From IMG/VR virus record IMGVR_UViG_2778261499_000007: 14,225 nucleotides of DNA; one strand, written 5' to 3'. Of this stretch, positions 1,403 through 13,456 are shown one piece after another. This stretch comes from a virus (lineage: Duplodnaviria; Heunggongvirae; Uroviricota; Caudoviricetes). The position numbers and the translations under genes were made by a program. Numbering within the stretch: the stretch's first letter is position 1; each line of letters opens with the position of its first letter. The notes under the pieces are model-generated. The model had not been told where the DNA came from, searched no databases, and was given only the letters and a program-made list of their open reading frames with translations.

Positions 1403-1436
1403 AAAAGACACCTCAAAAACTTAAGACGGGGATTAT

Positions 1437-1480
1437 GAGTCCTTCCAGGACCTTAGCTAAAGCTAAGCCCTTTGGGTCTG
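1437..1480 (-). repeat. Inverted repeat IR-L (44 nt, reverse complement of 4293-4336 with 5 mismatches)
   Basis: The minus strand reads cagacccaaagggcttagctttagctaaggtcctggaaggactc. It contains the palindrome CTTAGCT-TT-AGCTAAG and the hairpin GTCCT-GGA-AGGAC. Confidence 0.9.
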
Positions 1481-1487
1481 TGGATAA
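1479..1487 (-). promoter_or_regulatory. Perfect DnaA box (TTATCCACA on the minus strand)
   Basis: The plus strand reads tgtggataa, a 9/9 match to the E. coli consensus. It abuts IR-L. Confidence 0.4.
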
Positions 1488-1488
1488 T

Positions 1489-1541
1489 AAAAAAGGGAAG
1501 AGGGAAAGACCTATCCCCGATCTCTCACCTCTTCCCTTTGC
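1489..1541 (-). terminator. Rho-independent terminator after the capsid gene (possibly bidirectional)
   Basis: 10-bp stem AGGGAAGAGG (1494-1503) / CCTCTTCCCT (1528-1537). On the minus strand it is followed by TTTTT. It starts 3 nt after the capsid stop. Confidence 0.7.
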
Positions 1542-1543
1542 TT

Positions 1544-2578
1544 TTATTTAGCCTTGGCAGCGGCGGCGGTGTTTTTAACACTCACTTTAACCACAACTTC
1601 AGGCATCATGTTCATGAAAGCATAAGAGGATTCAACGAAGATTTCGCGTTTGCCTCTGGACTCTTCCATATACATGAAAGCTTCACGTGCAGCGCCGTTT
1701 GCCAGCTTCAGGTTGCGAGCGCAAGGGCCGAAAAATTGAGTATAAACGCCCACCATATCGCCTAACGCATGCGGCTGGAACTGTGGGACTAGATAAGCAG
1801 TATTCTCTGGCAGACTATCCATTTGCACCACACGCAGGGCTAAGCCCGGAATGCGGAAGGTCGGGAAGCCCGGCAGAATATCCTCAGGGAACATCAGACC
1901 TTTATCGGTAATATTCTGATTGCCGAACAACAGCACTTTACGGAGCAGTTCATCAGTCTGAATTGCAGCAAAGAGCTCAGCACGGCAGAACAGGGTGAAA
2001 CCACGCAGAGCGCGAACGACACCACGCTGTTTAACCTTGCTCAGTGCAACCAGGTCCTGCAGCTGTTTAAGGATATCTTGAGCTAGATCCACTTCTGAAG
2101 TGGTTTGCTGTGCGCCCAGCAGTTCGCACACATTCAGTTCTTTACCCTTGGTGAGGATAATTTTGTTCTCAAAGAGAGCAAGCTGGCGTGCTTCTTCATG
2201 GGTCTGGCGTAAGCCTTCGCCCAGTTGAATAACACGACGAGCGGTTACAGACTCTAAATTCTCTTCGGAATCTTTGCCAGGAACGCGGATACCCTGCCAG
2301 TCAGAAGGATAAATAGCACTTGATGCGGCAGTGAACGCCATATCACCCGTGCCCGTTTCACGCTCATCTGCGGTAATGGTCGCCATCTGTTCACCGTAGC
2401 GCGGATACTGACCGAAAGCGGTTTGTTTCACCTGCCGAACTTTGTCATATTCAAATTTGAAGGTATTGCACAGAGCAGTAGTGTTGAAGATATCCATTGC
2501 TGAAATAATCTGATTATCCAGCGGGATGTCTTTAATCAGACCACACAGATCGCGAACTTCGAATTCTTTCTTAGCCAT
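1544..2578 (-). CDS. Major capsid protein, lambda gpE-like (344 aa)
   Basis: AGGAGG lies 6 nt upstream of the ATG at 2578. The track start at 2584 is a TTG. Size, position directly after a gpD-like gene, and overall sequence character fit the phage major capsid protein E family. It is followed by a strong terminator. Confidence 0.7.
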   Translation of the reverse strand: MAKKEFEVRDLCGLIKDIPLDNQIISAMDIFNTTALCNTFKFEYDKVRQVKQTAFGQYPRYGEQMATITADERETGTGDMAFTAASSAIYPSDWQGIRVPGKDSEENLESVTARRVIQLGEGLRQTHEEARQLALFENKIILTKGKELNVCELLGAQQTTSEVDLAQDILKQLQDLVALSKVKQRGVVRALRGFTLFCRAELFAAIQTDELLRKVLLFGNQNITDKGLMFPEDILPGFPTFRIPGLALRVVQMDSLPENTAYLVPQFQPHALGDMVGVYTQFFGPCARNLKLANGAAREAFMYMEESRGKREIFVESSYAFMNMMPEVVVKVSVKNTAAAAKAK

Positions 2579-2589
2579 TTCCAACCTCC

Positions 2590-2925
2590 TTATTGTGCAA
2601 CACGCAAATCGCCATTGCTGGCAGCAATAACAGCGGCTAAGCCGTCTTTATCCACGTAGGCCGGATTGATATAACAGCCTTTGTTGGCAACAACGATAAA
2701 AGCATCACCAACCTCAGCACGTTCTACAACCAGCAGCGGAGTTTTATCGGTGTGCGTTTCTTTAACGAAGGTCTCAACCTCGCCAGCCTCAGTCACCACA
2801 ACAACAGTGCCAGCCGGAATCTCAGCTTTAACTTTGTTTTTAATTTCAACGTCGCGAATACTAAATTGCTCATCTGCGGCGTATGAAATGATGTGTCCGC
2901 GTGTGCGGATAGTCATATCTCTCAT
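2590..2925 (-). CDS. Head decoration / cement protein, lambda gpD-like (111 aa)
   Basis: AGGTGA lies 4 nt upstream of the ATG. About 110 aa with IPAGTVVVV...G..v.....a.VGDAFIVVANKGCY, typical of decoration proteins. It sits immediately upstream of the capsid gene, as in lambda D-E. Confidence 0.6.
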   Translation of the reverse strand: MRDMTIRTRGHIISYAADEQFSIRDVEIKNKVKAEIPAGTVVVVTEAGEVETFVKETHTDKTPLLVVERAEVGDAFIVVANKGCYINPAYVDKDGLAAVIAASNGDLRVAQ

Positions 2926-3410
2926 TTGATCACCTGCGATTTAAATTAACTCCCCTCAAAGAGTTCCGGTATAACCTCTCAAACCGCGACAGGCTCGGGC
3001 CGAAAAGTTATGCCGGAAATCTAAAGGGGGATTGATATAAGGAGAGGGAGATAGCCCCGCACCGTAGCCAAGCGGGGGCTATTCCACATGGGGAAACCGA
3101 CAACAGTCGGATGATAGTTCACAGTATGGGTTACGGTTACTAGAGAGCACTATCACGAAAGGCACTCCCCCGAATCAGTTCAGGCTGCGGTCACATCAGC
3201 GGGGAAATACCTTTCGGGATAGCTACCCACACAGAAAACCCGCAAAAGAAAACTGTGTGGATAACTAGCCCAATAGGAGAATTAATCGACCACTCAACGA
3301 TGATCAGGGTAGTGTTATTTATAGGGCGGCACCGCTACCTGGTCGCCTTTACTTTGGAGGAAAATATGGCAAATCAAGATCTTCTCAAATGATATTGATT
3401 CCATACTATA
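2926..3410 (-). other. About 480-nt ORF-poor, hairpin-dense leader between the SOS promoter and the decoration gene (candidate cos/packaging region or regulatory RNA)
   Basis: Stems read directly: ATAGCCCCGC/GCGGGGCTAT (3051-3081); CCGAC/GTCGG; CCACACAG/CTGTGTGG (3228-3260); TCCGG.ATAAC/GTTATACCGGA (2966-3019, 11 bp with 1 mismatch); and a nested long hairpin at about 3140-3226. There is a GC-rich quasi-symmetric block, GGGCGGCACCGCTACCTGGTCGCC, at 3324-3347. Confidence 0.4.
3256..3264 (-). promoter_or_regulatory. Perfect DnaA box (TTATCCACA on the minus strand)
   Basis: The plus strand reads tgtggataa, 9/9. It lies within the 3' arm of the CCACACAG/CTGTGTGG hairpin and its 3' flank. Confidence 0.35.
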
Positions 3411-3428
3411 CTGTATATTATATCAGTA
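3409..3428. promoter_or_regulatory. LexA operator (SOS box)
   Basis: TACTGTATATTATATCAGTA equals TACTG-N10-CAGTA with an all-A/T spacer. This is the canonical E. coli-type CTG-N10-CAG palindrome. It overlaps the -10 element of the promoter below. Confidence 0.8.
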
Positions 3429-3445
3429 TTTACTCACATTGTCAA
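3417..3445 (-). promoter_or_regulatory. Consensus sigma70 promoter firing leftward toward the decoration/capsid operon
   Basis: The minus strand reads TTGACA (3445-3440), a 17-nt spacer atgtgagtaaatactga, then TATAAT (3422-3417). Both hexamers and the spacing are perfect. Confidence 0.8.
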
Positions 3446-3775
3446 CACCTTGATTATATAAATTCTAATAATTAGCGTAGTAACGGTATTTTCAGACCTC
3501 TATCAATCCCATCAATACGTCACCCCCACCCTTTAGATGCATACATCCGACCTACTTTGTAGGCTTGGCGTACTGCCAAGGTCGCAGCTATGCGACTCCT
3601 ATCTATCACCACTTTATAAAGCTTGATAGATATCTTTTGATCAATATCAATGTTTTCCGGGTATTTACCCGGCTATAGTTCGAATCAAGGAAGGGGAGCA
3701 TTGATAGAGACACCCAAAGGGGTGACTGAAAGTCACCTGGCATAGCCAGTGAAAGCACCCAACCGAACAAACAAA

Positions 3776-3790
3776 TCAACTTCTCGCAAA
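3776..3790 (+). promoter_or_regulatory. Conserved leader motif copy 1 (TCAACTTCTCGCAAA), 26 nt before an ATG
   Basis: Identical 15-mer to 4367-4381, at the same distance from the start codon. Confidence 0.6.
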
Positions 3791-3801
3791 AGGTGATAGT
3801 T

Positions 3802-3924
3802 ATGGGTATCAAGAACAGTGCCAGCGCATGGCAAAAGGCCAGGTTTCATCACCCACACATTGTTAAGGCAATTGAGGTGGTTGGAGTTTTAGCCCTGATG
3901 TTAGCTCTGTGTGTGGAGGTGTGA
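3802..3924 (+). CDS. Small protein, 40 aa, with a hydrophobic C-terminal segment
   Basis: AGGTGA SD upstream. Translation: MGIKNSASAWQKARFHHPHIVKAIEVVGVLALMLALCVEV. It is below the ORF-track size cut-off and was translated by hand. Confidence 0.4.
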   Translation: MGIKNSASAWQKARFHHPHIVKAIEVVGVLALMLALCVEV

Positions 3925-3925
3925 G

Positions 3926-4006
3926 ATGGGCAAAGGAGGCAAAGCATTTTTAATAGGTCTGGCTATCCTGGATGTTCTACTAATCATGATTAAGCGGAGT
4001 TTATGA
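3926..4006 (+). CDS. Small membrane peptide, 26 aa
   Basis: GGAGG lies 6 nt upstream. The start is 1 nt after the previous stop. Translation: MGKGGKAFLIGLAILDVLLIMIKRSL. Confidence 0.4.
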   Translation: MGKGGKAFLIGLAILDVLLIMIKRSL

Positions 4007-4025
4007 ACAGCATTGAGAGGAGTTT

Positions 4026-4286
4026 ATGACGGGGGCTAAAGATATCAGGAGACTGAGGGAAGAGCTGATAGCTGAAATTAAAGCTAAGGCAAAGCAAATG
4101 GAGATAGCCGCACAAATGGATGTAGCGGAACAGATGTACAAGATGGTTGAGGAGGGAACGCCACGACAGGTTATCGCTAAAACCTTCGGTGTGGGGATCG
4201 CCACCGTGCACAGAAGGCTGAAAGCCTATGCCGACTACCACAATATCGAGAGAAAGGAGGATGGGAGATTTAAGAAGAATAAATAG
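4026..4286 (+). CDS. Stand-alone recombinase-type HTH protein (86 aa; coiled helix plus a Hin/resolvase-like HTH, no catalytic domain)
   Basis: GTPRQVIAKTFGVGIATVHRRL aligns with Hin GHPRQQLAIIFGIGVSTLYRYF (10/22 identical, from memory). The N-terminal 40 aa is a charged helix. No serine-recombinase catalytic domain is present anywhere in the element. Confidence 0.55.
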   Translation: MTGAKDIRRLREELIAEIKAKAKQMEIAAQMDVAEQMYKMVEEGTPRQVIAKTFGVGIATVHRRLKAYADYHNIERKEDGRFKKNK

Positions 4287-4292
4287 TAGGAA

Positions 4293-4336
4293 CAGGCCCG
4301 AAGGGCTTAGCTTTAGCTAAGGTCCTATCAGGACTC
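4293..4336 (+). repeat. Inverted repeat IR-R (44 nt, partner of 1437-1480)
   Basis: Sequence: caggcccgaagggcttagctttagctaaggtcctatcaggactc. It starts 7 nt after the HTH gene stop. Confidence 0.9.
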
Positions 4337-4366
4337 CCACACAGTCCAACAGGTTATTAACTAAAT

Positions 4367-4381
4367 TCAACTTCTCGCAAA
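4367..4381 (+). promoter_or_regulatory. Conserved leader motif copy 2 (TCAACTTCTCGCAAA), 26 nt before an ATG
   Basis: See 3776-3790. Confidence 0.6.
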
Positions 4382-4392
4382 GGGGTACCACT

Positions 4393-5103
4393 ATGTTTAA
4401 AGGTCTTGTTGTTACGCTATTGGCTTGCATTGTATTTGGTCCATGGGTGTTAGTAATTGCTTTACCTATATTGCTGATCATGAGCTTAGGGAATGATATT
4501 AAAAAGCTGCATGCACAATATAAGGAGCATCCTGGAGCAGTCATAACAAGTCTGGTTATAGTCGCGGGGCTTATTGGCTGGGTCTACTTCTCTCTTCCCA
4601 CAGGAAATACAACTGCAAATGTAGAAGAGGCGAACGCACAGCATGAAGAAGTGGTTAACGTCGCCGACCTTACATGGGAGGACAGGGTAAAAGCATATAA
4701 ATATATTTATGGTGTGCTAGATTGCGATCTCTCTAAAGATATAGGATGCACAGATAAATACCAGATTCACGCCTGGCTGTGGAATCATGCAGAAAAAGGT
4801 GCTTGCAACCAGATTAAAGTGGCGGTTAACAGTGGGGCACCTACTGGGAAAAATAAAGATGTTCTGACGGTATGGTGCAAGGATGTAAAAGGCAATGATC
4901 GTTGGCTACAGATGCGCCACATGGACGGTGTAAGCATAGAAACTACACGAACGGCTCGATGGTATAACGGTGAACTCGTTCACGAAGCATGGCAGAATAA
5001 CGCCTGGATCACTGAGGGAACACTCCTGAATGTTGATATGGAAGCATTGAAGATGCTTAATGAGATGTACGGTGAAGCCGTAGAAACCTCTCCGATGAAA
5101 TAA
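4393..5103 (+). CDS. Membrane protein (236 aa) with N-terminal TM helices and a Cys/Trp-rich extracytoplasmic domain; function unknown
   Basis: Hydrophobic stretches: LVVTLLACIVFGPWVLVIALPILLIM and VITSLVIVAGLIGWVYF. Soluble C-terminal domain. Followed by a strong terminator. Confidence 0.6.
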   Translation: MFKGLVVTLLACIVFGPWVLVIALPILLIMSLGNDIKKLHAQYKEHPGAVITSLVIVAGLIGWVYFSLPTGNTTANVEEANAQHEEVVNVADLTWEDRVKAYKYIYGVLDCDLSKDIGCTDKYQIHAWLWNHAEKGACNQIKVAVNSGAPTGKNKDVLTVWCKDVKGNDRWLQMRHMDGVSIETTRTARWYNGELVHEAWQNNAWITEGTLLNVDMEALKMLNEMYGEAVETSPMK

Positions 5104-5113
5104 CCACACCTAC

Positions 5114-5140
5114 CAGGGGCCATCACGGCCCCTTTTTATT
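5114..5140 (+). terminator. Rho-independent terminator
   Basis: AGGGGCC-atcac-GGCCCCT followed by TTTTTATTT. Confidence 0.8.
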
Positions 5141-5200
5141 TATCCCCTATTTACACTCCTTTCAGTCCTGATCATCACTCCCTACCCCCTGATCAATTAA

Positions 5201-5251
5201 CCCCTATTTAAGGGGTATTTAATGGGTATTTAATGCCTATTTATTGATTTA
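5201..5251. repeat. Phased 11-bp repeats (SSSTATTTAWK, 4-5 copies)
   Basis: TATTTA starts at 5205, 5216, 5227 and 5238, an exact 11-bp period. There is a degenerate copy at about 5247 and an isolated copy at 5148. Confidence 0.7.
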
Positions 5252-6486
5252 ATCCGTTTTATGCCACAACCGCCCGGTTGACAGAGTAAGAGAGAGGGTG
5301 TAACCCTTTTTCGTAATACTAATAAAATCAATAGCTTAGCTCAATTGGCCTTTTCTCTGTTTTTGTCAAATTTAACATACCCTAAAAAACTGCAAAATCT
5401 GGCTGCAAGATTATCTGCAGCTGGATTTCTTACACCTCAATTTGTGGTATCACCCTGACTAGTTTGTGCATAAAATGAACAGTTTTTAACATTTCCTCTT
5501 CACCTGGTAACCACACAAAAAGCTAAAAACGAGGCACAGATAATCTTAGAGGCCTGTTTTCTTGTTATCACTCTGGAAACGTCGTAGAAGTGATTTTGAT
5601 GAAAGATGACCTACCCTATTACACCCCCATTTTTTGTTATCACAATTGCATCCTGTGCGGTGTATGGCTGTGTGCTGAAAGCGGTCTTGGGTGTGGGTGT
5701 CAGAAATATCCATTAGCGGTATTAATACCCGTCAGATGTTCGTCTGAGGTGCCAGGCAGGCGCTCCCCCACCTCCCTTTTTTCTTCTAACAATTCTCAAA
5801 TATCACACCACTGCCGACCACGTTACTACTCTGTTAATTCTTAAGCTTTGCTGTATGTTGTGCACATTATTTATTCAGGTGCGTGTACGTAAATTCTGGG
5901 CCTCCTTATCATGATTTTTAAATCAGATTTTGTAGTTCGGTTTCTTAGTGTAGATAAGATCTATTATGTTAAATGCAATTTTCCCAACCCTTCAAATCAA
6001 TGACTTACATGTAAGCATGCACTAACACCCCACACAGCACATTAGACGTATAGATGGCTATATCCCACATTTTTGATTGTTTTGTAGTCATTCCCCTGAT
6101 CATTTAACCAGTATAGTTTGTTCTTTGCAGACCACAAAATCGGAATTTACATCTGATTAACATAATCTGTTAGCATGATCACTATTACCCACACAACAAT
6201 AACCCCATGCAAGACTCTTCAGGCAATTTATCGGCGTGTTGGTGTGAACAGTCTTTCATGTTCTTTATGTTTTCATTGTCCTGTGTGAGGGAAGGATGGA
6301 CTGCCCCAGGGGCCACACTTATGATGCCCGGTCAACATAGCTATTGATAAAATCAACGGGTGTTGATCTGCATATTTCCCACACATGAGAGGAAATCAGA
6401 GCAAAGAGAGAGGAGAGAGGTTTGCTAGTCAAAATAGGTCAATTGACGGCTAATACAGAGTAAAAAATCAGATGCAATCACTCCCC

Positions 6487-6673
6487 ACCTGTTGGGATTT
6501 CCCGCACCTGTATAAGAATACAGTCATACTTTCCCGTTATACGGTCATACACATGATGGAATAACCTGTTGGAATTTCCTACAGGTTTAACCATACACAG
6601 GAGCTAACCTGTTGGAATTTCCTACTACTACCTGTCGGTATTTCCCACAGGTACCTGTTGGAATTTCCCACAC
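6487..6673 (+). repeat. Iteron array (5 x 21 bp, ACCTGTTGGAATTTCCCACAS); candidate replication origin
   Basis: Copies start at 6487, 6564, 6607, 6630 and 6653. The last three have a 23-bp period. Each contains an internal ACCTGT...ACAGGT dyad. An AT-rich flank (6674-6708) contains GATCTATTCTCTT on the minus strand (6683-6695), 1 mismatch from the oriC 13-mer GATCTnTTnTTTT. Confidence 0.75.
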
Positions 6674-6797
6674 TAATAGATAAAGAGAATAGATCAATAA
6701 AAAGAACTCCCCCTATAATCCCCCAACAAGGGGGGATGGGGAGGGATCAGAGAGTGGGGAAGGTTTTCTAAGGGAAAAGCTTAACCCACAAATGAAA

Positions 6798-7086
6798 GCC
6801 TAAAGAGCATTAGCGACTCTTTAGGCAATCTGTGTGTGGGGTGACAATGTATTCCATACATGACACGTCACCCAATTGTGTGTGGGGTGCTTACAGCACT
6901 TAAGCCTCTGGCTTAACCCTTCGGGCCTCTGTGTGGGAAGCGTAGTGCGATAGCACGTAGCTTTATAATGTGGAGTCCGGATAAGAGACTTCTGTTTCCA
7001 ATCCGGACCGTTTAAGCGAGGGATTCCGCTCGCCCGTGTATGCACACACGTAATAGGACGCTCAGAAATCGATTTTAAGGCCCAAA
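6798..7086 (+). other. Cluster of GC-rich hairpins (candidate structured ncRNA or single-strand initiation signal)
   Basis: GCCTAAAGAG/CTCTTTAGGC (6798-6826); GGGTGAC..GTCACCC with nested ATGTAT/ATACAT (6839-6873); CCC-TTCG-GGG context (6917-6925); GTCCGGAT/ATCCGGAC (6975-7008); GCGAG/CTCGC (7016-7033); AGGCCC/GGGCCT (7069-7086). TGTGTGTGGGGTG occurs twice (6831, 6877). Confidence 0.35.
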
Positions 7087-7231
7087 ACGGGGCCTACAGC
7101 AACCTAAACCATACTCCATAGTGCAATTGCATTGCCTGATGCTTAAATCGCGTTGTAGGGCATCTCATGAGGTTTGAGTTTAACACCCTCCAAAGTTTTA
7201 ACAAAAAGTGCTCTCCCTCCATTGTGGGCCA

Positions 7232-7261
7232 TTGACAATCTTATTGCATAAATGCTATAAG
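7232..7261 (+). promoter_or_regulatory. Promoter P1 (TTGACA-18-TATAAG)
   Basis: Read directly. Shares the ATTGACAAT motif with P2 and P3. Confidence 0.5.
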
Positions 7262-7360
7262 TGATTCTGGTTTTGACACGGTAGGGGCCATTAATAATGT
7301 TTACCCCTTTGCTGTGGACTTGCTTGCACCTATAGCACACCTAAATGATAATAATTCTCA

Positions 7361-7389
7361 TTGACAATTGGTTGACAATATGATAAGAT
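7361..7389 (+). promoter_or_regulatory. Promoter P2 (TTGACA-17-TAAGAT)
   Basis: Read directly. A second TTGACAAT lies 11 bp downstream, at 7372. Confidence 0.5.
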
Positions 7390-7424
7390 TATAAATAGGG
7401 GGAGAAACAGATCCGGAGGTCAAT

Positions 7425-7574
7425 GTGGAAATTACTGATGCAATAGCGATCATCAACCTGGCTGTACTGTGGTGCGGTGTTGCCTACATAGCCGGAGTAA
7501 CTGCAATCGACAATCTCGAAGAAAAAATGATAGATAAATACAAAAAGATTGTTGACAATTTGACGAATGTCTGA
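7425..7574 (+). CDS. Small single-TM peptide (49 aa, GTG start)
   Basis: GGAGG lies 5 nt upstream of the GTG. Translation: VEITDAIAIINLAVLWCGVAYIAGVTAIDNLEEKMIDKYKKIVDNLTNV. Not in the ORF track; translated by hand. Confidence 0.4.
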   Translation: MEITDAIAIINLAVLWCGVAYIAGVTAIDNLEEKMIDKYKKIVDNLTNV

Positions 7575-7580
7575 TAAAAT
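7552..7580 (+). promoter_or_regulatory. Promoter P3 (TTGACA-17-TAAAAT)
   Basis: Read directly. It lies inside the 3' end of the 49-aa ORF. Confidence 0.55.
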
Positions 7581-7630
7581 ATAAAGCATAGGGTAATTCT
7601 CATCATAGTGAATTTCCTTAAACAAAAATG

Positions 7631-7662
7631 CGGGGGCTTGTCTTAAGTTCCCGTTTCTTTTT
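7631..7662 (+). terminator. Intrinsic terminator / attenuator in the leader of the replication operon
   Basis: CGGGGGCTT-gtctt-AAGTTCCCG (9-bp stem including two G.U pairs) followed by TTTCTTTTT. It sits between P3 and the ATG at 7706. Confidence 0.55.
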
Positions 7663-7705
7663 AACCGTATATCGCACAGGCGGTGAGCTGACAGGAGATT
7701 GAATC

Positions 7706-7915
7706 ATGGCTAAAACCGGACCGATAAGCCAGCTGGTAAACTGGACTACTGACGAAATCGTCGAGAACGTGCTTAAAGGTAACTTTCGAAAAACTTCCGT
7801 TTATGCATTTATTCGTAAACACAAAGGGGAATACCCACATATTGAAGCGGCAATAGAAAAACTTAACTTTATCCGCATTGAGCGTGAGCTGGAAAGATAT
7901 AAACATCTACTTTGA
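7706..7915 (+). CDS. Small protein (69 aa), possible DNA-binding regulator
   Basis: AGGAG lies 8 nt upstream. First gene of the rightward operon. KTSVYAFIRKHKGEYP weakly recalls AlpA/Xis-type sTiYr.i..g.fP. Confidence 0.5.
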   Translation: MAKTGPISQLVNWTTDEIVENVLKGNFRKTSVYAFIRKHKGEYPHIEAAIEKLNFIRIERELERYKHLL

Positions 7916-7939
7916 TAAATAATCTTGGAGGATCATATT

Positions 7940-8326
7940 ATGGCAAATAACGATGAAAATTTTACTCCCTTTTTTAAACGTTTCATCAAATACACTTTTA
8001 AAAATCCGATTGCAAAAACTGCAACCAATAAAGAAAGATTTCACTTAAATGTGTTGGAGGTAACAATTTATGGTGAAATGGTAAGTTATTCTTTTAAGGA
8101 GGGTGAAGAAATAATTATCTCAGAGCTCTCGACGCAGACATTAGCAGACGATTATGATGTTACAGAGAAAACAGTAAGGTCGGCTATCAAAACATTAGAG
8201 GCTGCAGGTCTGATAAACGTTAAACGAGAACAGGGCAAATCGAATATCTACGAATTGCTAATTACCCCTGATCAGCTTGGCAAGATGTGCGATGAGCAGG
8301 GTATTAGAGAATATTTTATATATTAA
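7940..8326 (+). CDS. Winged-helix DNA-binding protein, short paralog of the Rep-like protein (128 aa)
   Basis: GGAGG lies 8 nt upstream of the ATG at 7940. The track start at 7925 is a TTG. It aligns along its whole length with the N-terminal 130 aa of the next protein (FTP.F..FI.Y.F..P.A....NK...ERF.L...E..IYG.MV...F.....I.ISE...LA.......VSAIK.LE.AGLI......G.SN.Y.LL.TPDQL..MC.E.G). Confidence 0.65.
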   Translation: MANNDENFTPFFKRFIKYTFKNPIAKTATNKERFHLNVLEVTIYGEMVSYSFKEGEEIIISELSTQTLADDYDVTEKTVRSAIKTLEAAGLINVKREQGKSNIYELLITPDQLGKMCDEQGIREYFIY

Positions 8327-8337
8327 TGGGGGGAACT

Positions 8338-9258
8338 ATGGCAGGAAATAAACTGGGGGCACCTTTTACCCCCTCTTTCGATTTCTTTATTCAGTATGAT
8401 TTTGATAAACCAGTAGCAACAACAATTTCTAATAAAAAGACTGGAACAGTTAAAGAGCGCTTCTATTTAACAGACTTTGAAATGTTGATTTATGGAAAAA
8501 TGGTGGGATTTCATTTTAACGGTGAGGGAATTTATATTTCAGAGCAAAAACTGGCAACTCAACTCAGAAAGGATCGCGGGAAAATAGTAAGCGCTATTAA
8601 ATCTCTGGAAAATGCCGGGCTTATTTCTAAAGATAGCCGGAAAGGCATGTCTAATAATTACAAATTGCTGAAAACCCCTGATCAATTGTTGGATATGTGC
8701 ATTGAGAAGGGCGTAAATATTCCAGAAGGCATCTTAGAGACTTTCGGAAAGACTGCCGCTAAAGTAGAACAGCCTCAGGAAGCCCCAAAACAAGCCACAC
8801 AGCAAGCTAAAAAGGCTAAAGTAGTGCAATTGCCTACCCAAGACACTAAAGCGCCTCAAATTAACGCTGTTAGTGACAAGCCACGCCGGGGCCGTCCTGT
8901 GAAAGATGTCACCGATGGAGGCTGGATCGTCCTGGGTGAGAGTGAGGCTAAAGGCATAATGCGATCACTGTGGGAAAGCAAATACAAAGATTTAAACAAA
9001 CGTCGCCCGATCCTTTTGTCAAAGATTCAGGAGGATTTTTACACCGCAGAAGAGGTAAGCCAACATAAAGGGAAAAGAGAGGGTGAAATCTGGAAACCGG
9101 AAGAATACTGGCATTTAACCAGACCTGTGTTTATTTTTGCAAATAAGCTTATTGGGATGGGATTTGAAATATTGTTGGATAAAACCTGCGGAGATTATCC
9201 CGAAATATTGTGGAGAAATGTTAGAAAAAATAAAAAAGGCATTTTAGAGTTTAAATAA
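8338..9258 (+). CDS. Putative replication initiator (306 aa): N-terminal winged helix plus a PRRGRP basic linker plus a C-terminal domain
   Basis: GGGGGG lies 4 nt upstream of the ATG at 8338, and the paralog alignment starts at MAGNK. The wHTH pattern is typical of plasmid/phage initiators. The iterons lie about 1.3 kb upstream. Confidence 0.55.
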   Translation: MAGNKLGAPFTPSFDFFIQYDFDKPVATTISNKKTGTVKERFYLTDFEMLIYGKMVGFHFNGEGIYISEQKLATQLRKDRGKIVSAIKSLENAGLISKDSRKGMSNNYKLLKTPDQLLDMCIEKGVNIPEGILETFGKTAAKVEQPQEAPKQATQQAKKAKVVQLPTQDTKAPQINAVSDKPRRGRPVKDVTDGGWIVLGESEAKGIMRSLWESKYKDLNKRRPILLSKIQEDFYTAEEVSQHKGKREGEIWKPEEYWHLTRPVFIFANKLIGMGFEILLDKTCGDYPEILWRNVRKNKKGILEFK

Positions 9259-9275
9259 AAACACTGATAATCTTA

Positions 9276-9289
9276 TTTTTTTTTTTTTT
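9276..9289 (+). repeat. T14 homopolymer tract
   Basis: Counted directly. It lies between the Rep-like stop and the RBS of the next small ORF. Confidence 0.9.
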
Positions 9290-9306
9290 GTTTAAGGAAA
9301 TTTAAA

Positions 9307-9453
9307 ATGTATGGCGATTTTGATTATTACCTGGAAAAGGAAAAATATTTTGAAGATGAACTATCACAACATTTTTCATATTGGGAAGAATATTGTGGTT
9401 GGTTAGCTGAAGATCCAGCAGATGAAGAAAATGATTCTGACATCCCTTATTAA
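9307..9453 (+). CDS. Highly acidic, aromatic-rich 48-aa protein
   Basis: AAGGA lies 8 nt upstream. Translation: MYGDFDYYLEKEKYFEDELSQHFSYWEEYCGWLAEDPADEENDSDIPY (18 D/E, 2 K, 0 R). Not in the ORF track; translated by hand. Confidence 0.5.
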   Translation: MYGDFDYYLEKEKYFEDELSQHFSYWEEYCGWLAEDPADEENDSDIPY

Positions 9454-9551
9454 TTAATATCCCCTGTTATCCCCAAACAAACTAAATAAATAAACTAAGC
9501 ACTAGAACTAGATTGATTGCCCTGATCTTTTAAACGTTCGGAGAATTAATC

Positions 9552-10040
9552 ATGTTCAAATCTGATCTTTCTGATTCCCAATTTGAAAAACTGGTAGCAC
9601 TGCAGAAATATCTCCCCAGTGATGATCAACCAACACGACAGGCTAAACACTTATTAGTCGAGGGCTTTACCCCTGAATTCGTGGCGGAATATACAGGCGT
9701 TAAACTTGAGAAAGTCCAAAAACTATATAATGAGTCCTGGAATCCACGGTGTCGAGTTCCCCTCAGTGTCTACAACGAAATAGATAGAGATAGAAATGTC
9801 TTCGAAGATCGCCGCCGCAAATCTCTTTTAATGTGGAATTGTGGGATGAATATTGAAGAGATAGCAAAAGAATTAAAAGTAACCTGCTTTCATATCTGGG
9901 GCTTGTTGAGTGAAATCCTACCACGTAAGGAGCTTAATCAACGTTTGCCTAAGCCCGGTAGTCGTGCTTATCGCGAATTTATATTCATCTACCGCCGCCA
10001 TAGCAATAAAGTCCGGAAAGCAATGGCCCAGAAAGCCTAA
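9552..10040 (+). CDS. Protein with two HTH-like motifs (162 aa); function unknown
   Basis: GGAGA lies 7 nt upstream. HTH-like stretches: FTPEFVAEYTGVKLEKVQKLY and MNIEEIAKELKVTCFHIWGLL. Basic C-terminal tail. Confidence 0.6.
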   Translation: MFKSDLSDSQFEKLVALQKYLPSDDQPTRQAKHLLVEGFTPEFVAEYTGVKLEKVQKLYNESWNPRCRVPLSVYNEIDRDRNVFEDRRRKSLLMWNCGMNIEEIAKELKVTCFHIWGLLSEILPRKELNQRLPKPGSRAYREFIFIYRRHSNKVRKAMAQKA

Positions 10041-10113
10041 GTTTTATCTCTTCGATTTATTTATTTTCGACTCACTTTAACCCCTTCCGGGGCTCTAATT
10101 TAAGGAATTCCAA

Positions 10114-10557
10114 ATGTCTCAAATCGCTAAATTACTATCCCAGGTTATCAAAGCTTTCGACGCTGAAGATTCAAAAGTTCGCCAGGATCTTTTAGATGGC
10201 AAGTTTACCAACACCCTGGCATTTACCCGTGACAAAGAGCACTTCTTAAAACACAGACACCACGCTTTTGCTGAATGCAAGTCCGCTAATGGTGATGTTT
10301 TCTATGTCGATTTGGTGGTTATGGCATGTAGATTGTGGATGATTCAGGACCTTATGCGCCAACACGGTGATGATCCTCTTATCAGCATGTGGAACAGCGC
10401 CCAGGATGGCTTTGTGATTGCTGCCTTATCCAAATCAATGATTGAGGCAGAAGGGGCAAGCCTTCAGAACATGGCAGATCTCTTTGAAATAAGCGTAGGA
10501 ATGATGCAGACCATGCTCCAAGCTGTCAAACCTCTCAAACTGGTTAATCTTGATTAA
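10114..10557 (+). CDS. Hypothetical helical protein (147 aa)
   Basis: AAGGA lies 7 nt upstream. No recognisable motif. Confidence 0.55.
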   Translation: MSQIAKLLSQVIKAFDAEDSKVRQDLLDGKFTNTLAFTRDKEHFLKHRHHAFAECKSANGDVFYVDLVVMACRLWMIQDLMRQHGDDPLISMWNSAQDGFVIAALSKSMIEAEGASLQNMADLFEISVGMMQTMLQAVKPLKLVNLD

Positions 10558-10618
10558 GCTATTGATAAATAAGCACTCCCCATTTTTTTGGGGGGTGCAT
10601 CAATGAGAGGATATGCCT

Positions 10619-11002
10619 ATGAATATTGAAGAAATGATAGTTGAATTCGAAGATGGTGATTTCCTGGAAGATGGGGAGTTTAAATACTCCCGTTTTAAAC
10701 AGGCGTTATTTAGCAGTGAGGATAAACCACACGTTAGTGATCTTAACGACGATGATTTATGTCGTTGGGTATGCACCCGCTTATATGAGGATGGAAAATA
10801 TACAGGCCAAAACTTTCCAAATCTCTATTTCAAAGCACAAACATTTGAGGAAGGGCAAAGAGTGAAAAACCTGGTAGATAAAATGCTTTCAGCCGGATAT
10901 TTGCATAAAGAATTATTAAATCCTAAAGCTGAAAGCAAGCGCCATTATATTTTTGTGTGGTCTGTGGGGGATAAGTGCCCACTGAAGCGTAAAGGCAAAT
11001 GA
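10619..11002 (+). CDS. Hypothetical acidic protein (127 aa); tail assembly chaperone by position only
   Basis: GAGAGGA lies 7-8 nt upstream of the second ATG (10619). Acidic N-terminus. It sits two genes before the tape measure gene. Confidence 0.5.
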   Translation: MNIEEMIVEFEDGDFLEDGEFKYSRFKQALFSSEDKPHVSDLNDDDLCRWVCTRLYEDGKYTGQNFPNLYFKAQTFEEGQRVKNLVDKMLSAGYLHKELLNPKAESKRHYIFVWSVGDKCPLKRKGK

Positions 11003-11003
11003 T

Positions 11004-11189
11004 ATGAATACCTACGAAAAGATTTATCAAAAATTAAAAAGTGATAACAATGCTCCCGTCATCAAGGGCGGGGCTTCTTCCTCTGGTGACCTCTCAATCG
11101 AAGAGCTTGCGGAGAAATATAATATTGATAAAGAGGCCCTGAAAAGGGCTATTTCATTATCAAAATCTTTAAGACAAGGCGAGGTATAA
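11004..11189 (+). CDS. Hypothetical protein (61 aa)
   Basis: Tightly packed between its neighbours: it starts 1 nt after the upstream stop and its stop is 1 nt before the tape measure ATG. Confidence 0.5.
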   Translation: MNTYEKIYQKLKSDNNAPVIKGGASSSGDLSIEELAEKYNIDKEALKRAISLSKSLRQGEV

Positions 11190-11190
11190 A

Positions 11191-13293
11191 ATGGCAATGA
11201 AGGAAGTAGCCAAGCTAACAAACGTTATTTACTGGGATTCTGATAAATCCAGCTGGCGAAAAGAAGTTAAACGGCTTGAGGATTATAAAAAATCCTGGAA
11301 GAAAGCTACCGACGATATAGCTAAAGCGGATTTTAAATCTAATCAGGCTGTGCTCAGAACACAAAGAACACGCGCTAAGGTGGAAGAGCAGATCGCCAGA
11401 GCACAGAAGAAACAACGTGCTCAGGCTGTCAGCCGTCTGACCGGGGGCAATAATCCGGAGCTCTCCTCTATGCGCAAGTTCTATCAGCAGCAAGCCAGAG
11501 AGGCCGCCAGACAACAAAAACTGTTAGATCGTAGTGTTGGAGATGTTCAGCACAGAAAAGCACGTGTAGGGGCCAACAGTGCACGAATCAGCAGCATGTT
11601 TGATGGCTCCCTGGTTGCTCAGTTCCAATCCAGAATTCAGAGAGTTAATGCTGATTATGCTAAAGGGGCTATTAACCTGCAGACCTATAATCAGAAAATG
11701 GCCCGACTCAGATCTGAAATGAAGATGGCAACAGCAGAGGCCGGAAAATTTCAGAGCAGACTAGACAAAGCTGCGGTAGCAGGATCAAAGCTGCATGACA
11801 ACCTGGGCAAACTCAACTCCACACTAGGCAAGATAGCTATTGGCCTTACTGCCGCTGGCTGGGGTGTTCAGCGTGCTGTTAGTGGTGCTATGGGTAGCCT
11901 TGCAGATCGCAACAGTGCGTATTTCAGCTTAATGGCCCAGAACAAGGATGATAAAGAAAAAACTGATCAGCAGATGGCCTACGTCAAAAGAATCTCTTAT
12001 GACTACGGGATGGATCAGCGTGAGACTGAAGGCGGCTTTATGCGCTTTGCTGCAGCCACACCAAGCATAAAAGAGAAAGATAAGCAGGATCTCTTTGAGG
12101 CTATGGCGATTAAAGGCCGATCAGTGGGTGCTACCGCAGACCAACAGAACAGGGCTATCGTTGCACTAGGACAAATATATAGCAAGGGCGGTCGAGTGTA
12201 TGCGGAAGAGCTTAAGGGCCAACTTTCTGAAGCCCTGGCAGGTTCTCAGGTAGATTTCACTAAGGCCGCTATCGATGCCGGAGTCATCAAGAAAGAGGAA
12301 GAATTTAATAAAGCCCTTGAAGATGGCAAGATCACCATGGACAAGCTTCTTCCTTCTCTGGTGAAAATCTGGGGTGCTGCAAAAGAAACTAAAGCTTTTG
12401 CTGAATCCATGAAACAGCCAGAAGTAGCAATGCAGCGCATGAAAAACAGCTTTAACGAGCTGGCGATTCAGTTTATGGGTGTTGTGGATCCTGCAGATGG
12501 CGTTATTAGCTTATCTGAATCTCTAATCTCCATCTTCGAAGACCTCACCACTGATATGGACGGCAGCGGGAGCGCGGCAAAACAGTTCGGTGAGGCAGTC
12601 GGGGCTGCCATGCGGGAGATCATGTATTGGGTAGGCTTCGCTAAGGGATATATCGAGATTAAGGCTAAAGAGTTCGGCATGACCAGTGAGGAAGTCGGAG
12701 GATGGATCGGCAAGCTGGTTGTTGCAATCGCAGGTCTGAAGATCATCGGCACACTTCTTTCTCCGTTTACCGGACTGATTTCACTTGTCACACAGCTGAT
12801 AGCCTTGTTAGGTAAAATCCCTGGTATGAGCAAGCTTCTGGCTTCTGCCTCAGGTGGAACGGCAACAGGAGCAGCGGTCATCAGTGCAGGATCTAACGCT
12901 GAAAGAAGTTTCATTGATGGCAAGACGCAGGAAATGAGTAAGGAGAACTCAAAACAGGGTGCTTTGTTTGAGCTGGGAAGATTTGTTAGCAATGCTGGCG
13001 CACTATTCACACCTGGCGGTGATACTGGTCCTTTGTTCGATCAGGTCAGAGGCTGGTTTAATAAAGGGCCAACATTGACAGTAGACACTGGCATCAGACC
13101 AACACCAACGGGTGGCATAGCTATCCAGAATGGTGGATATCAACCAGTCCAAGTAAATGTAGCCCCACAAGGTGAGATTTCCGGCAAATGGGAGATAACC
13201 ATCGATGAGGGGGGAATTGCCAGGGTAATTCAGAAGGAAGTCAGCGATCAGTTGGATTGGAAAGCCACGCAGGAATCTAACCAGCTTTTCTAA
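11191..13293 (+). CDS. Tail tape measure protein (700 aa)
   Basis: GAGG lies 6 nt upstream. Long coiled-coil N-terminus. Conserved tape-measure core: ADQQNRAIVALGQIYSKGGRVYAEELKGQLSEALAGSQVDFTKAAIDAGV. Gly/Ala-rich hydrophobic segments: GKLVVAIAGLKIIGTLLSPFTGLISLVTQLIALLG. Confidence 0.85.
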   Translation: MAMKEVAKLTNVIYWDSDKSSWRKEVKRLEDYKKSWKKATDDIAKADFKSNQAVLRTQRTRAKVEEQIARAQKKQRAQAVSRLTGGNNPELSSMRKFYQQQAREAARQQKLLDRSVGDVQHRKARVGANSARISSMFDGSLVAQFQSRIQRVNADYAKGAINLQTYNQKMARLRSEMKMATAEAGKFQSRLDKAAVAGSKLHDNLGKLNSTLGKIAIGLTAAGWGVQRAVSGAMGSLADRNSAYFSLMAQNKDDKEKTDQQMAYVKRISYDYGMDQRETEGGFMRFAAATPSIKEKDKQDLFEAMAIKGRSVGATADQQNRAIVALGQIYSKGGRVYAEELKGQLSEALAGSQVDFTKAAIDAGVIKKEEEFNKALEDGKITMDKLLPSLVKIWGAAKETKAFAESMKQPEVAMQRMKNSFNELAIQFMGVVDPADGVISLSESLISIFEDLTTDMDGSGSAAKQFGEAVGAAMREIMYWVGFAKGYIEIKAKEFGMTSEEVGGWIGKLVVAIAGLKIIGTLLSPFTGLISLVTQLIALLGKIPGMSKLLASASGGTATGAAVISAGSNAERSFIDGKTQEMSKENSKQGALFELGRFVSNAGALFTPGGDTGPLFDQVRGWFNKGPTLTVDTGIRPTPTGGIAIQNGGYQPVQVNVAPQGEISGKWEITIDEGGIARVIQKEVSDQLDWKATQESNQLF

Positions 13294-13395
13294 TGTCCAC
13301 TCTGTGGATTTGAGTTCTACTCAAACCTGCATAGCAGGCACTGATATTGTGATCAAAATCAATAAGTTAGCCTGACCGGACAAACTCCAGGCAAG

Positions 13396-13432
13396 AAAAA
13401 AGCCCCTAAGTGTTAACAAAGGGGCTCTTCTC
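13396..13432. terminator. Bidirectional terminator between the convergent operons (best on the minus strand)
   Basis: AGCCCCT (13401-13407) / AGGGGCT (13420-13426), preceded by A6, so the minus strand reads stem plus TTTTTT. On the plus strand it is followed by CTTCTCC. Confidence 0.65.
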
Positions 13433-13456
13433 CGGTATCCTTTTGATGCGGGGCAA

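What the first reader, a model, noticed from the sequence alone, without database searches (positions are those of the whole stretch)
7232..7662. Three tandem promoters sharing ATTGACAAT, an embedded 49-aa TM peptide gene and a leader terminator ahead of the replication operon
Seen: TTGACAAT occurs 4 times in 330 bp (7232, 7361, 7372, 7552), and three copies have good -10 elements at 17-18 bp. P2 is followed by a GGAGG-GTG ORF for a one-TM peptide, and the 3' end of that ORF contains P3. P3 transcripts meet an intrinsic terminator (7631-7662) about 45 nt before the first operon gene. A roughly 75-nt P3 RNA would also carry GAATTTCCT, the iteron core. This looks like an attenuation or copy-control module, possibly with a toxic-peptide (type I TA-like) addiction function.
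Basis: partly seen in the sequence, partly recalled or inferred. Interest (0 to 1): 0.5.

Follow-up and report, generated by a model that had tools for sequence, protein, structure and literature searches.

The report
Promoter–leader–terminator gate of plasmid operon
This is the control region at the head of the main rightward operon of a small E. coli plasmid: near-consensus promoters in tandem, a real 49-residue membrane-protein gene, and a short hairpin leader ending in a terminator. It is an ordinary kind of gene switch in a new sequence family, and there is no support for the proposed toxin or iteron links.

Summary
TTGACAAT occurs four times on the + strand (7232, 7361, 7372, 7552), against 0.85 expected in the whole window. 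P2 and P3 are among the three best sigma-70 sites in 14 kb. A GGAGG-GTG ORF (7425-7574) contains P3 in its 3' end. An intrinsic terminator (7630-7662) lies 43 nt before the first operon gene.

In 23 related plasmids the promoter hexamers and spacing are invariant while the spacers drift. The ORF is under purifying selection (pN/pS 0.16-0.28). The 42 nt up to and including the P3 -35 carry extra constraint.

The predicted 75-nt P3 RNA folds into a 5' hairpin plus the terminator in every variant. One relative has an unrelated leader that still ends in a terminator.

Best reading: a promoter/leader-attenuator gate on the replication and tail-morphogenesis operon.

Not supported:
- The "iteron core" link. 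GAATTTCCT is the 3' arm of the 5' hairpin and does not co-vary with the iterons.
- A type I toxin-antitoxin module.
- Antisense or alternative-fold attenuation.

TTGACAAT is mainly the -35 hexamer plus AT. A second role as an operator is possible.

The more striking result is the context. The plasmid looks like an undescribed satellite of rV5-like phages.

The parts
7232..7261 (+). P1: candidate sigma-70 promoter. -35 TTGACA 7232-7237, 18-nt spacer, extended -10 TGcTATAAG (TG 7253-7254, -10 7256-7261).
   Evidence: Read from the sequence. The hexamers and spacing are kept in 20 of 23 relatives while the spacer sequence varies. The region is replaced in L003, L004 and L007. It is not listed by the scanner because the -10 ends in G.
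7361..7389 (+). P2: sigma-70 promoter with extended -10. -35 TTGACA 7361-7366, 17 nt, TGaTAAGAT, -10 at 7384-7389. Promoter of the 49-aa gene.
   Evidence: Scores 10/12 with TG. The -35 and TGATAAGAT are invariant in 23 relatives and the spacer is variable.
7372..7379 (+). Second TTGACAAT box inside the P2 spacer, 11 bp after the first. It has no -10 of its own and may be a regulator site.
   Evidence: Variants are TTGACAAT (11), TTGTCAAT (7), TTGACAGT (3) and TTGACAAG (2). TTG-N-CA is always kept.
7415..7574 (+). SD GGAGG (7415-7419) and a 49-aa single-pass membrane protein gene: GTG 7425, stop TGA 7572-7574. TM helix at about residues 6-28, charged C-terminal tail.
   Evidence: ORF list. PGAP annotates it in all RefSeq relatives. 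Variable sites by codon position are 11/7/24. pN/pS is 0.16-0.28 in frame and above 1 in nearly all off-frame comparisons. Hydropathy. Homologues occur only in this plasmid family. No family hit.
7518..7580 (+). P3: A/T-rich upstream region (7518-7551), -35 TTGACA 7552-7557, 17 nt, extended -10 TGaTAAAAT (TG 7572-7573 is part of the stop codon; -10 at 7575-7580). Main promoter of the rightward operon, embedded in the 3' end of the 49-aa gene.
   Evidence: Scores 11/12 with TG. Positions 7518-7559 have 2 of 42 variable sites against 40 of 102 in the rest of the ORF (Fisher 1.3e-5). At third codon positions it is 1 of 14 against 23 of 34 (p = 2.6e-4). The module from 7498 onwards is carried into an rV5-like phage recombinant at 98.9% identity.
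7587..7662 (+). Predicted P3 leader / short RNA of about 75 nt. The start is inferred from the -10 and the end from the U-tract.
   Evidence: MFE -22.2 kcal/mol, z = -4.4 against shuffles. No Rfam family.
7589..7620 (+). SL1: 5'-terminal stem-loop. Outer stem UAGGG/CCUUA, inner stem AAUUC/GAAUU. GAATTTCCT (7610-7618) is its 3' arm.
   Evidence: All 15 homologous leader variants form a hairpin here. The inner helix is replaced by CACUA/UAGUG in L013, L017 and L026 and lengthened in L018. Changes in L006, L022 and L023 are wobble-compatible. Column-based covariation is weak.
7630..7662 (+). Intrinsic terminator / leader attenuator: 11-bp stem 7630-7654 with a 3-nt loop, then U-tract TTCTTTTT 7655-7662.
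   Evidence: Four G-U pairs make the hairpin specific to the + strand (read from sequence). Three stem variants keep the helix through changes on both arms, and the U-tract is invariant. The non-homologous L019 leader also ends in a terminator.
7693..7915 (+). SD (AGGAG 7693-7697) and the first operon gene, 69 aa (ATG 7706). It is followed by a Rep-N paralogue (7925-8326), the O-like Rep (8326-9258) and genes up to the tape-measure homologue (11191-13293).
   Evidence: AF2 model with pLDDT 87.6, all-helical, no informative fold match. The family is restricted to these plasmids.

Best explanation
The region is the transcriptional head of the long rightward operon: a 69-aa gene, the O-like replication initiator, and genes up to the tape-measure homologue.

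Shown by sequence and comparison:
- Two near-consensus sigma-70 promoters with extended -10 (P2, P3), plus a weaker upstream one (P1), all fire rightwards.
- P2 with a strong SD expresses a genuine 49-aa single-pass membrane protein.
- P3 sits in the last 60 nt of that gene. Its extended -10 TG is part of the stop codon.
- P3 is followed by a 5' hairpin, a variable spacer and a strong intrinsic terminator 43 nt before the first operon gene.
- There is no room for another promoter between the terminator and that gene.

Inferred:
- Most transcripts from P3 and P2 stop at the terminator. This would yield an RNA of about 75 nt from P3 and an mRNA of about 270 nt for the 49-aa gene from P2.
- Only the read-through fraction expresses Rep and the morphogenesis genes. 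A very strong promoter is thereby converted into low operon expression in the plasmid state.
- The 5' hairpin probably stabilises the transcripts.
- The TTGACAAT boxes are the -35 elements. They may also serve as a common operator shared with the other main promoter (3445-3417, - strand).
- Whether read-through is raised by a factor, for example from a helper phage, is unknown.
For: Promoters:
- the three best sites in 14 kb, 3 observed against 0.27 expected.
- Hexamers and spacing are invariant while spacers drift in 23 relatives.
- Suppression of synonymous change upstream of and in the P3 -35.

Gene:
- Coding signature and a TM segment.

Leader:
- z = -4.4.
- The same two-hairpin fold in all variants, with helix replacement.
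- Invariant U-tract.
- The L019 leader is unrelated in sequence but still ends in a hairpin plus UUCUUUUU about 38 nt before a 34%-identical homologue of the first gene.
- Mosaic breakpoints fall at 7498 (L008) and about 7584 (L019). P3 and the leader-gene cassette therefore behave as units.

Operon content:
-.
Against: - There is no experimental TSS or 3' end, so activity and termination efficiency are predictions.
- Formal covariation is weak. RNAalifold found no pairs with both sides changed, only G-U to A-U changes.
- No antiterminator alternative, no antisense promoter and no regulator were identified, so 'regulated' attenuation is unproven.
- The terminator could simply end the 49-aa gene's transcript.
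- P1 has an imperfect -10 and is absent in 3 of 23 relatives.
Confidence: 0.6

Rival explanations
1. The 75-nt terminated P3 transcript is itself the product. It would be a constitutively made regulatory RNA for immunity or copy control, analogous to P4 CI RNA or P1 c4 RNA. Such an RNA would act on the read-through mRNA, for example on the ribosome-binding site of the first gene, or on a helper-phage or host target.
For: - A very strong promoter, a compact two-hairpin RNA and a strong terminator.
- The 3' arm UUUCCU can pair with the AGGAG of the first gene.
- In some relatives the complementarity extends to 16-20 bp: L021 at -15.9 kcal/mol and L004 at -20.2 kcal/mol, z about -2.
Against: - In the window itself the leader-to-translation-initiation-region duplex is no better than shuffles (z = 0.63).
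- There is no significant target anywhere on the plasmid. The best non-self hit is -39.6 against -34.6 to -45.2 for shuffled queries.
- The loop and spacer are mosaic and are not linked to the type of the first gene.
- The pairing segment is buried in SL1.
Confidence: 0.15
2. The 49-aa peptide is the toxin of a type I toxin-antitoxin (post-segregational killing) module.
For: - A small protein with one TM helix, conserved under purifying selection, on a plasmid.
Against: - No convincing antisense promoter and no terminator opposite the gene. The only minus-strand matches are 9/12 by-products of the palindromic -35 boxes.
- The antisense ORF is not conserved.
- No nearby RNA with complementarity.
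- No match to Hok, Ldr, TisB, Ibs, Fst or any Pfam, NCBIfam, PADLOC or PHROG family.
- A near-consensus promoter and an optimally spaced GGAGG argue for open expression.
Confidence: 0.07
3. The (A/G)TTGACAAT boxes are operators, not only -35 elements. A common repressor would bind them and co-regulate P1, P2, P3 and the leftward capsid-operon promoter. Candidates are the 69-aa first gene product or the 86-aa HTH_7 protein. This is compatible with the best explanation.
For: - The two bases after the -35 are kept at P1, P3 and Pcap while the spacers drift.
- A second box sits 11 bp away in P2 without a -10.
- The box is palindromic (TTG-N-CAA). The A-to-T change at its centre in 7 relatives keeps the palindrome but weakens the -35.
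- An 11-bp AATTGACAATT palindrome occurs without promoter context in L002, L003 and L013.
Against: - TTGACA followed by A is palindromic by construction.
- No regulator was identified. The fold of the 69-aa protein is uninformative.
- No covariation between boxes and any protein was tested.
Confidence: 0.3
4. The leader carries a Rep-binding half-iteron (GAATTTCCT). Rep would then autoregulate or titrate through the leader DNA or RNA.
For: - A 9-nt identity with 2 of the 5 iterons.
Against: - GAATTTCC is not over-represented: 4 of 200 shuffles reach the observed count of 4.
- The flanks do not match.
- L005 (iteron CCGGAAGATTTCTCCGG) and L016 (CTGAAGATTTCTCAC) keep the identical leader 9-mer.
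- The 9-mer is explained as the SL1 3' arm.
Confidence: 0.04

Closest known systems
Leader (attenuator) intrinsic terminators between a strong promoter and an operon; lambda dv-type circuit (PR - small regulator - terminator - O/P replication genes)
   Same: A strong rightward promoter, a small first gene (69 aa), an O-like wHTH initiator downstream, and a terminator that limits flow into the replication genes.
   Different: - The terminator is intrinsic and precedes the small gene. Lambda tR1 is Rho-dependent and follows cro.
- No boxA or boxB is visible in the leader.
- The iterons lie upstream of the operon, not inside the initiator gene.
- The comparison with lambda rests on textbook knowledge. 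It was not tested here.
Satellite phage P4 immunity (PLE leader, CI RNA, Timm; upstream PLL) and P1/P7 c4 RNA
   Same: Tandem promoters in front of the replication operon of a satellite-like element, and a short RNA made from the leader, with premature termination ahead of the operon.
   Different: - No complementary box pairs (seqA/seqC, a2/b2) were detected.
- No sequence or Rfam similarity.
- Here the RNA would be a primary terminated transcript, not a processed one.
- The resemblance is recalled from the literature, not demonstrated.
Antisense-RNA-driven transcription attenuation of rep (pT181, pIP501, pAMbeta1)
   Same: An intrinsic terminator in the rep leader.
   Different: - No countertranscript promoter on the opposite strand.
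- No mutually exclusive antiterminator fold.
- The replicon is of the iteron type.
Type I toxins (Hok, TisB, Ldr, Ibs, Fst)
   Same: Size (49 aa) and a single hydrophobic helix.
   Different: - No family match and no antisense partner.
- Strong promoter and SD.
- A conserved charged C-terminal tail.

Membership tests
Sigma-70 promoter with extended -10 | TTGACA-like -35, 16-18 nt spacer, TATAAT-like -10 with TGn upstream | tested here: met
   P3 scores 11/12 and P2 10/12, both with TG. P1 has a perfect -35, an 18-nt spacer and TGcTATAAG (read from sequence). Hexamers and spacing are conserved in relatives.
Sigma-70 promoter with extended -10 | Transcription actually starts there | not testable with these tools
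   Needs 5'-RACE or dRNA-seq.
Intrinsic (Rho-independent) terminator | G+C-rich hairpin directly followed by a U-tract on the transcribed strand | tested here: met
   An 11-bp stem at 7630-7654 with 5 G-C pairs and a 3-nt loop, then TTCTTTTT. It is kept in all relatives with changes on both arms, and it is present in the unrelated L019 leader.
Antisense-RNA-mediated rep attenuation (pT181/pIP501 type) | Countertranscript promoter opposite the leader, and an alternative antiterminator pairing | tested here: not met
   There is no promoter-like site on the minus strand between 7587 and 7706. MFE and centroid folds show no competing helix for the terminator's 5' arm.
P4 CI / P1 c4 type leader-derived immunity RNA | Short boxes in the RNA complementary to target boxes in the same transcript | tested here: inconclusive
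   The leader-to-translation-initiation-region duplex is not better than shuffles in the window (z = 0.63), and z is about -2 in a few relatives. No plasmid-wide target was found.
Type I toxin-antitoxin | Small hydrophobic toxin | tested here: met
   49 aa, Kyte-Doolittle 2.18 over residues 7-25.
Type I toxin-antitoxin | Antisense or partly complementary antitoxin RNA gene next to the toxin | tested here: not met
   No credible minus-strand promoter and terminator pair. No complementary segment nearby.
Type I toxin-antitoxin | Homology to a known toxin family | tested here: not met
   Pfam (E up to 10), NCBIfam, PADLOC and PHROGs gave nothing relevant.
Type I toxin-antitoxin | Toxicity on over-expression | not testable with these tools
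   Needs an induction experiment.
Type III toxin-antitoxin (ToxIN-like) | Tandem RNA repeats, then a terminator, then an endoribonuclease toxin gene | tested here: not met
   No tandem repeats in 7587-7629. The downstream 69-aa helical protein has no ToxN-like match.
Rep operator / iteron-derived site | Sequence co-varies with the iteron specificity of the replicon | tested here: not met
   Relatives with different iterons keep the same leader 9-mer.
Any Rfam family | Covariance-model score above the gathering threshold | tested here: not met
   The only hit is a chance L20_leader match at 22.9 bits against a 58.7-bit threshold, driven by the terminator.

The most novel reading that the evidence does not exclude
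The P3 leader would be the immunity or induction gate of a previously undescribed plasmid-borne satellite of rV5-like (Vequintavirinae) lytic phages. In the plasmid state the strong P3 would mostly produce a 75-nt terminated RNA and keep the Rep-to-tape-measure operon nearly silent. On helper infection a phage factor would override the terminator, or relieve a TTGACAAT-binding repressor, and switch on replication and the satellite's own capsid and tail-length determinants.
Probability: 0.15. Interest if true: 0.7.

Novelty: new member of a known kind. Interest (0 to 1): 0.4.

Why it matters
Taken alone, this is a well-built but conventional control region: tandem consensus promoters, a promoter embedded in a coding 3' end, a 5' hairpin and a leader terminator.

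Its value comes from what it controls. The operon carries the replication initiator and a tape-measure homologue of a plasmid family found in hundreds of E. coli and Shigella assemblies. The plasmid's capsid, tape-measure and tail-tube-initiator genes are all most similar to those of rV5-like lytic phages.

If the plasmid is a satellite, this 430-bp region is the obvious place where a helper signal would act. It offers compact, testable parts: reporter fusions to P3 with and without the terminator, and measurements with and without rV5 infection.

The region is also a clean example of dual coding. Fourteen codons are frozen at synonymous sites by an overlapping promoter.

Tried and rejected
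- Rfam scan of the whole window at E <= 1: only chance hits.
- Iteron link: rejected because the leader 9-mer does not co-vary with iteron type.
- Anti-SD model (leader UUUCCU pairing with the AGGAG of the first gene): MFE folds of several relatives suggested it. Duplex energies are not better than shuffles in the window and only marginal elsewhere.
- Trans target of the 75-nt RNA on either strand of the plasmid: none above the shuffled background.
- Antisense ORF 7389-7625: start and frame are not conserved.
- A 25-codon ORF starting at the ATG at 7628 and spanning the terminator: the ATG is absent in most relatives and there is no SD. Rejected by reading the alignment.
- Family and fold searches for the 49-aa and 69-aa proteins: nothing. 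In the exhaustive HMM search, the only hits outside the family were K/E-rich repeat proteins, judged spurious.
- RNAalifold covariation: formally weak. The sequence alignment mis-registers the replaced inner helix.
- Similarity of the C-terminus of the 49-aa protein to phage nom gp18: none. The recombinant junction is a 7-nt microhomology, TAACTGC.
- TTGACAAT enrichment in the rV5-like phage early region: none.
- Literature searches for this plasmid family or for satellites of rV5-like phages: nothing found.

Full report
**What the window is**

The 14,225-nt window matches complete circular E. coli plasmids of 13.2-13.7 kb at 92-95% identity over 75-92% of its length. One 39.6-kb record is a head-to-tail trimer of the same unit.

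The plasmid has two large transcription blocks that converge on each other.
- The rightward block runs from the region under study to 13293. It carries a 69-aa gene (7706-7915), a Rep N-terminal paralogue (7925-8326), a wHTH 'O-like' replication initiator (8326-9258), several small genes and a 700-aa tape-measure homologue.
- The leftward block starts at a perfect consensus promoter (3445-3417, - strand) and carries a capsid-protein homologue and a tail-tube initiator ('baseplate') homologue.

Five 19-21-nt iterons lie at 6485-6671, inside a 2.3-kb stretch with no annotated gene.

**Check of the observation**

- TTGACAAT occurs at 7232, 7361, 7372 and 7552 on the + strand. A fifth copy is at 3445 on the - strand. 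Shuffles give 0.85 expected for the whole window, and none of 200 reached five.
- The scanner finds P3 (TTGACA-17-TAAAAT, 11/12, TG) and P2 (TTGACA-17-TAAGAT, 10/12, TG), and a terminator at 7630-7654 followed by a T-run.
- Across the whole window only three sites score at least 10/12 with an extended -10: P2, P3 and the leftward promoter. The expectation is 0.27 and P(>=3) = 0.003.
- P1 has a perfect -35, an 18-nt spacer and TGcTATAAG. It lacks the conserved final T, so it is a fair promoter, not a good one.
- The 7372 box lies in the P2 spacer and has no usable -10.
- The ORF is GGAGG (7415-7419), 5 nt, GTG 7425, through TGA 7572-7574. It encodes 49 aa with a hydrophobic stretch at about residues 6-28.
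- The stop codon supplies the TG of the P3 extended -10.
- The terminator's U-tract ends at 7662, 43 nt before the ATG at 7706.

**Comparative evidence for the promoters**

I collected 23 distinct versions of the region from RefSeq plasmids and public assemblies and aligned them.
- For all three promoters the hexamers and the spacer length are invariant or nearly so, while the spacer sequences differ.
- P2 -35 and TGATAAGAT: 23 of 23.
- P3 -35: 23 of 23, with TGATAAAAT in most and TGATATAAT in 2.
- P1: 20 of 23, with at least eight spacer variants. The three exceptions carry a different segment in place of P1.
- This is the pattern expected of working promoters.

**The 49-aa gene is real**

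- PGAP annotates it in every RefSeq relative.
- Among the 23 sequences, 43 sites vary. Within codons 2-48, the split by codon position is 11/7/24.
- Pairwise pN/pS is 0.16-0.28 in the annotated frame and above 1 in nearly all off-frame comparisons.
- The alternative ATG at 7423 is destroyed in 12 relatives while the GTG (or an ATG) start is kept.
- Amino-acid changes in the hydrophobic segment are mostly conservative.
- Homologues exist only in this plasmid family.
- No Pfam, PHROG, NCBIfam or PADLOC family matches.

**P3 imposes a second constraint on the gene**

Positions 7518-7559 cover the A/T-rich stretch upstream of P3 and its -35.
- They show 2 variable sites in 42, against 40 in 102 for the rest of the ORF (Fisher p = 1.3e-5).
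- At third codon positions the counts are 1 of 14 against 23 of 34 (p = 2.6e-4).

An rV5-like phage contig found in two sequencing runs carries window 7498-7954 at 98.9% identity. That segment holds P3, the leader, the terminator and the 69-aa gene, but not the N-terminal half of the 49-aa gene. The junction is a 7-nt microhomology. P3 together with its leader therefore travels as a unit.

**The leader**

From the predicted start (about 7587) the RNA folds into SL1 (7589-7620) and the terminator hairpin. The energy is -22.2 kcal/mol with z = -4.4.

All 15 homologous leader variants fold the same way.
- The SL1 outer stem is invariant.
- The inner helix AAUUC/GAAUU becomes CACUA/UAGUG in three relatives and a continuous 11-bp stem in another.
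- Single changes in L006, L022 and L023 are wobble-compatible.
- The terminator exists in three versions that differ on both arms, and the U-tract never varies.

A column-based RNAalifold analysis sees only invariant pairs and G-U to A-U changes. Formal covariation support is therefore weak, and the argument rests on helix replacement.

Four G-U pairs make the terminator hairpin specific to the + strand.

The strongest single argument comes from L019. From the P3 -10 onwards its leader is unrelated in sequence. It still has 5' hairpins and GCUGGG-loop-CCCAGC followed by UUCUUUUU, about 38 nt before a 34%-identical homologue of the first gene.

No Rfam family matches.

**What the leader is not**

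- Not an iteron-related site. GAATTTCCT (7610-7618) is the 3' arm of SL1. Relatives with other iteron specificities (L005 CCGGAAGATTTCTCCGG, L006 CGGTAAATATTTCCGG, L016 CTGAAGATTTCTCAC) have the same or nearly the same leader, so the iteron link is rejected.
- Not convincingly an anti-SD element. The same pyrimidine run can pair with the SD of the first gene, and some relatives' MFE folds show this. The duplex is no better than shuffles in the window (z = 0.63) and only marginal elsewhere.
- Not an antisense regulator of a target on this plasmid. No such target stands out.
- Not an antisense-controlled attenuator. No minus-strand promoter faces the leader, and no alternative helix competes with the terminator.

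**Mechanism**

The architecture is shown by sequence and comparison. The behaviour is inferred.
- P3, and to a lesser degree P2 and P1, load RNA polymerase at high rate.
- The terminator stops most transcripts.
- The read-through fraction expresses the 69-aa protein, Rep and the downstream morphogenesis genes.
- P2 transcripts give the mRNA of the membrane protein and end at the same terminator.

I put 0.6 on this attenuator or gate reading.

The TTGACAAT boxes are primarily -35 elements. Several points leave room for a shared operator (0.3, not exclusive of the main reading):
- conservation of the two following bases;
- the extra box in the P2 spacer;
- the palindromic form;
- a promoter-less AATTGACAATT in some relatives.

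No regulator could be assigned. The 69-aa protein gives a confident all-helical model without an informative fold match.

The other readings are less likely:
- trans-acting immunity or copy-control RNA: 0.15;
- type I toxin-antitoxin: 0.07;
- iteron-derived site: 0.04.

**Comparison with known systems and novelty**

In kind this is a leader-terminator gate behind tandem consensus promoters. It resembles the lambda dv circuit and, more loosely, P4 and P1 leader-RNA immunity. It fails the testable membership criteria of the antisense-attenuation, type I TA, type III TA and iteron-operator classes.

I rate it a new member of a known kind, with interest 0.4. The score is raised by its context.

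**Context, outside the finding**

All three structural homologues on the plasmid have their best phage matches in rV5-like Vequintavirinae:
- capsid protein: 25% identity over 97% of its length;
- tape measure: 25% identity;
- tail-tube initiator: 51% identity, E = 2e-57.

I found no terminase or portal gene. There is also a natural phage-plasmid recombinant and a trimeric record. A 2025 review states that only one plasmid satellite, of an inovirus, is known (PMC12282955). My literature searches found nothing on this family. This looks like an undescribed plasmid satellite of lytic rV5-like phages and deserves its own follow-up.

Noticed in passing
window 1-14225 (capsid homologue 1544-2584 -, tail-tube initiator/'baseplate' 153-1010 -, tape measure 11191-13293 +): The whole plasmid looks like an undescribed plasmid-borne satellite of rV5-like (Vequintavirinae) lytic phages. 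Its capsid (25% identity), tape-measure (25%) and tail-tube-initiator (51%, E = 2e-57) homologues all have their best matches in that phage group. No terminase or portal gene was seen. The family occurs in hundreds of E. coli and Shigella contigs of 13-14 kb. No paper was found.
   Followed up: partly
L008 10173-11583 (Logan ERR13318355, 38-kb contig; also L009 from ERR13318739): An rV5-like phage (98.8% identical to phage nom) in which about 7 kb, from the 3' end of nom_18 to most of nom_25, is replaced by about 1.4 kb of plasmid DNA. The insert carries P3, the leader, the 69-aa gene, a 121-aa gene and the 5' part of rep. The left junction is a 7-nt microhomology, TAACTGC. This is a natural phage-plasmid recombinant.
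   Followed up: partly
L007 (NZ_CP043822.1, 39,610 bp): This record is a head-to-tail trimer of the ~13.2-kb plasmid with small differences between copies. It could be a real multimer, possibly related to packaging, or an assembly artefact.
   Followed up: no
window 3445-3417 (- strand), with a leader down to about 2930: A perfect 12/12 consensus promoter (GTTGACAAT...TGATATAAT), conserved in relatives, heads the leftward capsid operon. About 490 nt of structured leader follow it. It shares the TTGACAAT...TGATAnnAT design with P2 and P3.
   Followed up: partly
window 6485-6671; L005 6605-6895; L006 13226-13500; L016 6560-6783: Iteron specificity is swapped among otherwise closely related plasmids, with at least four iteron types, in parallel with different Rep variants of 284-310 aa.
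   Followed up: partly
window 5103-7230: A non-coding stretch of about 2.1 kb, within the 2.3-kb gene-free region 5103-7425. It holds TGTGTGGGGTG-like repeats at 6833, 6879 and 6930, many CCCACACA motifs, a minus-strand terminator-like hairpin at 6826-6798 and a plus-strand terminator at 5115-5133. It might hold non-coding RNAs, or packaging or partition sites.
   Followed up: no
window 7925-8326: An extra gene for a 129-133-aa protein that resembles the wHTH N-terminal domain of the initiator (HTH_36; PHROG 'replication initiation'). It is present in only some relatives. Others have an unrelated 164-166-aa gene or nothing at this position.
   Followed up: no
window 7343-7370; L029 271-298: The stretch just upstream of and including the P2 -35 (AAATGATAATAATTCTCATTGACAATTG) matches an intergenic site in Stephanstirmvirinae phages of about 147 kb at 26 of 28 positions (E = 0.1). 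By eye it also resembles a Fur box in 14 of 19 positions. This may be chance.
   Followed up: partly
L002 4944, L003 4638, L013 9429 (3' end of rep): An 11-bp palindrome, AATTGACAATT, with no promoter context occurs in some relatives but not in the window. It may be a binding site for the same factor that would recognise the promoter boxes.
   Followed up: no
window 13391-13431 (- strand): A weak ctRNA_p42d Rfam hit (23.6 bits against a 50-bit threshold). It is a terminator-like hairpin between the convergent operons and is probably just a terminator.
   Followed up: no
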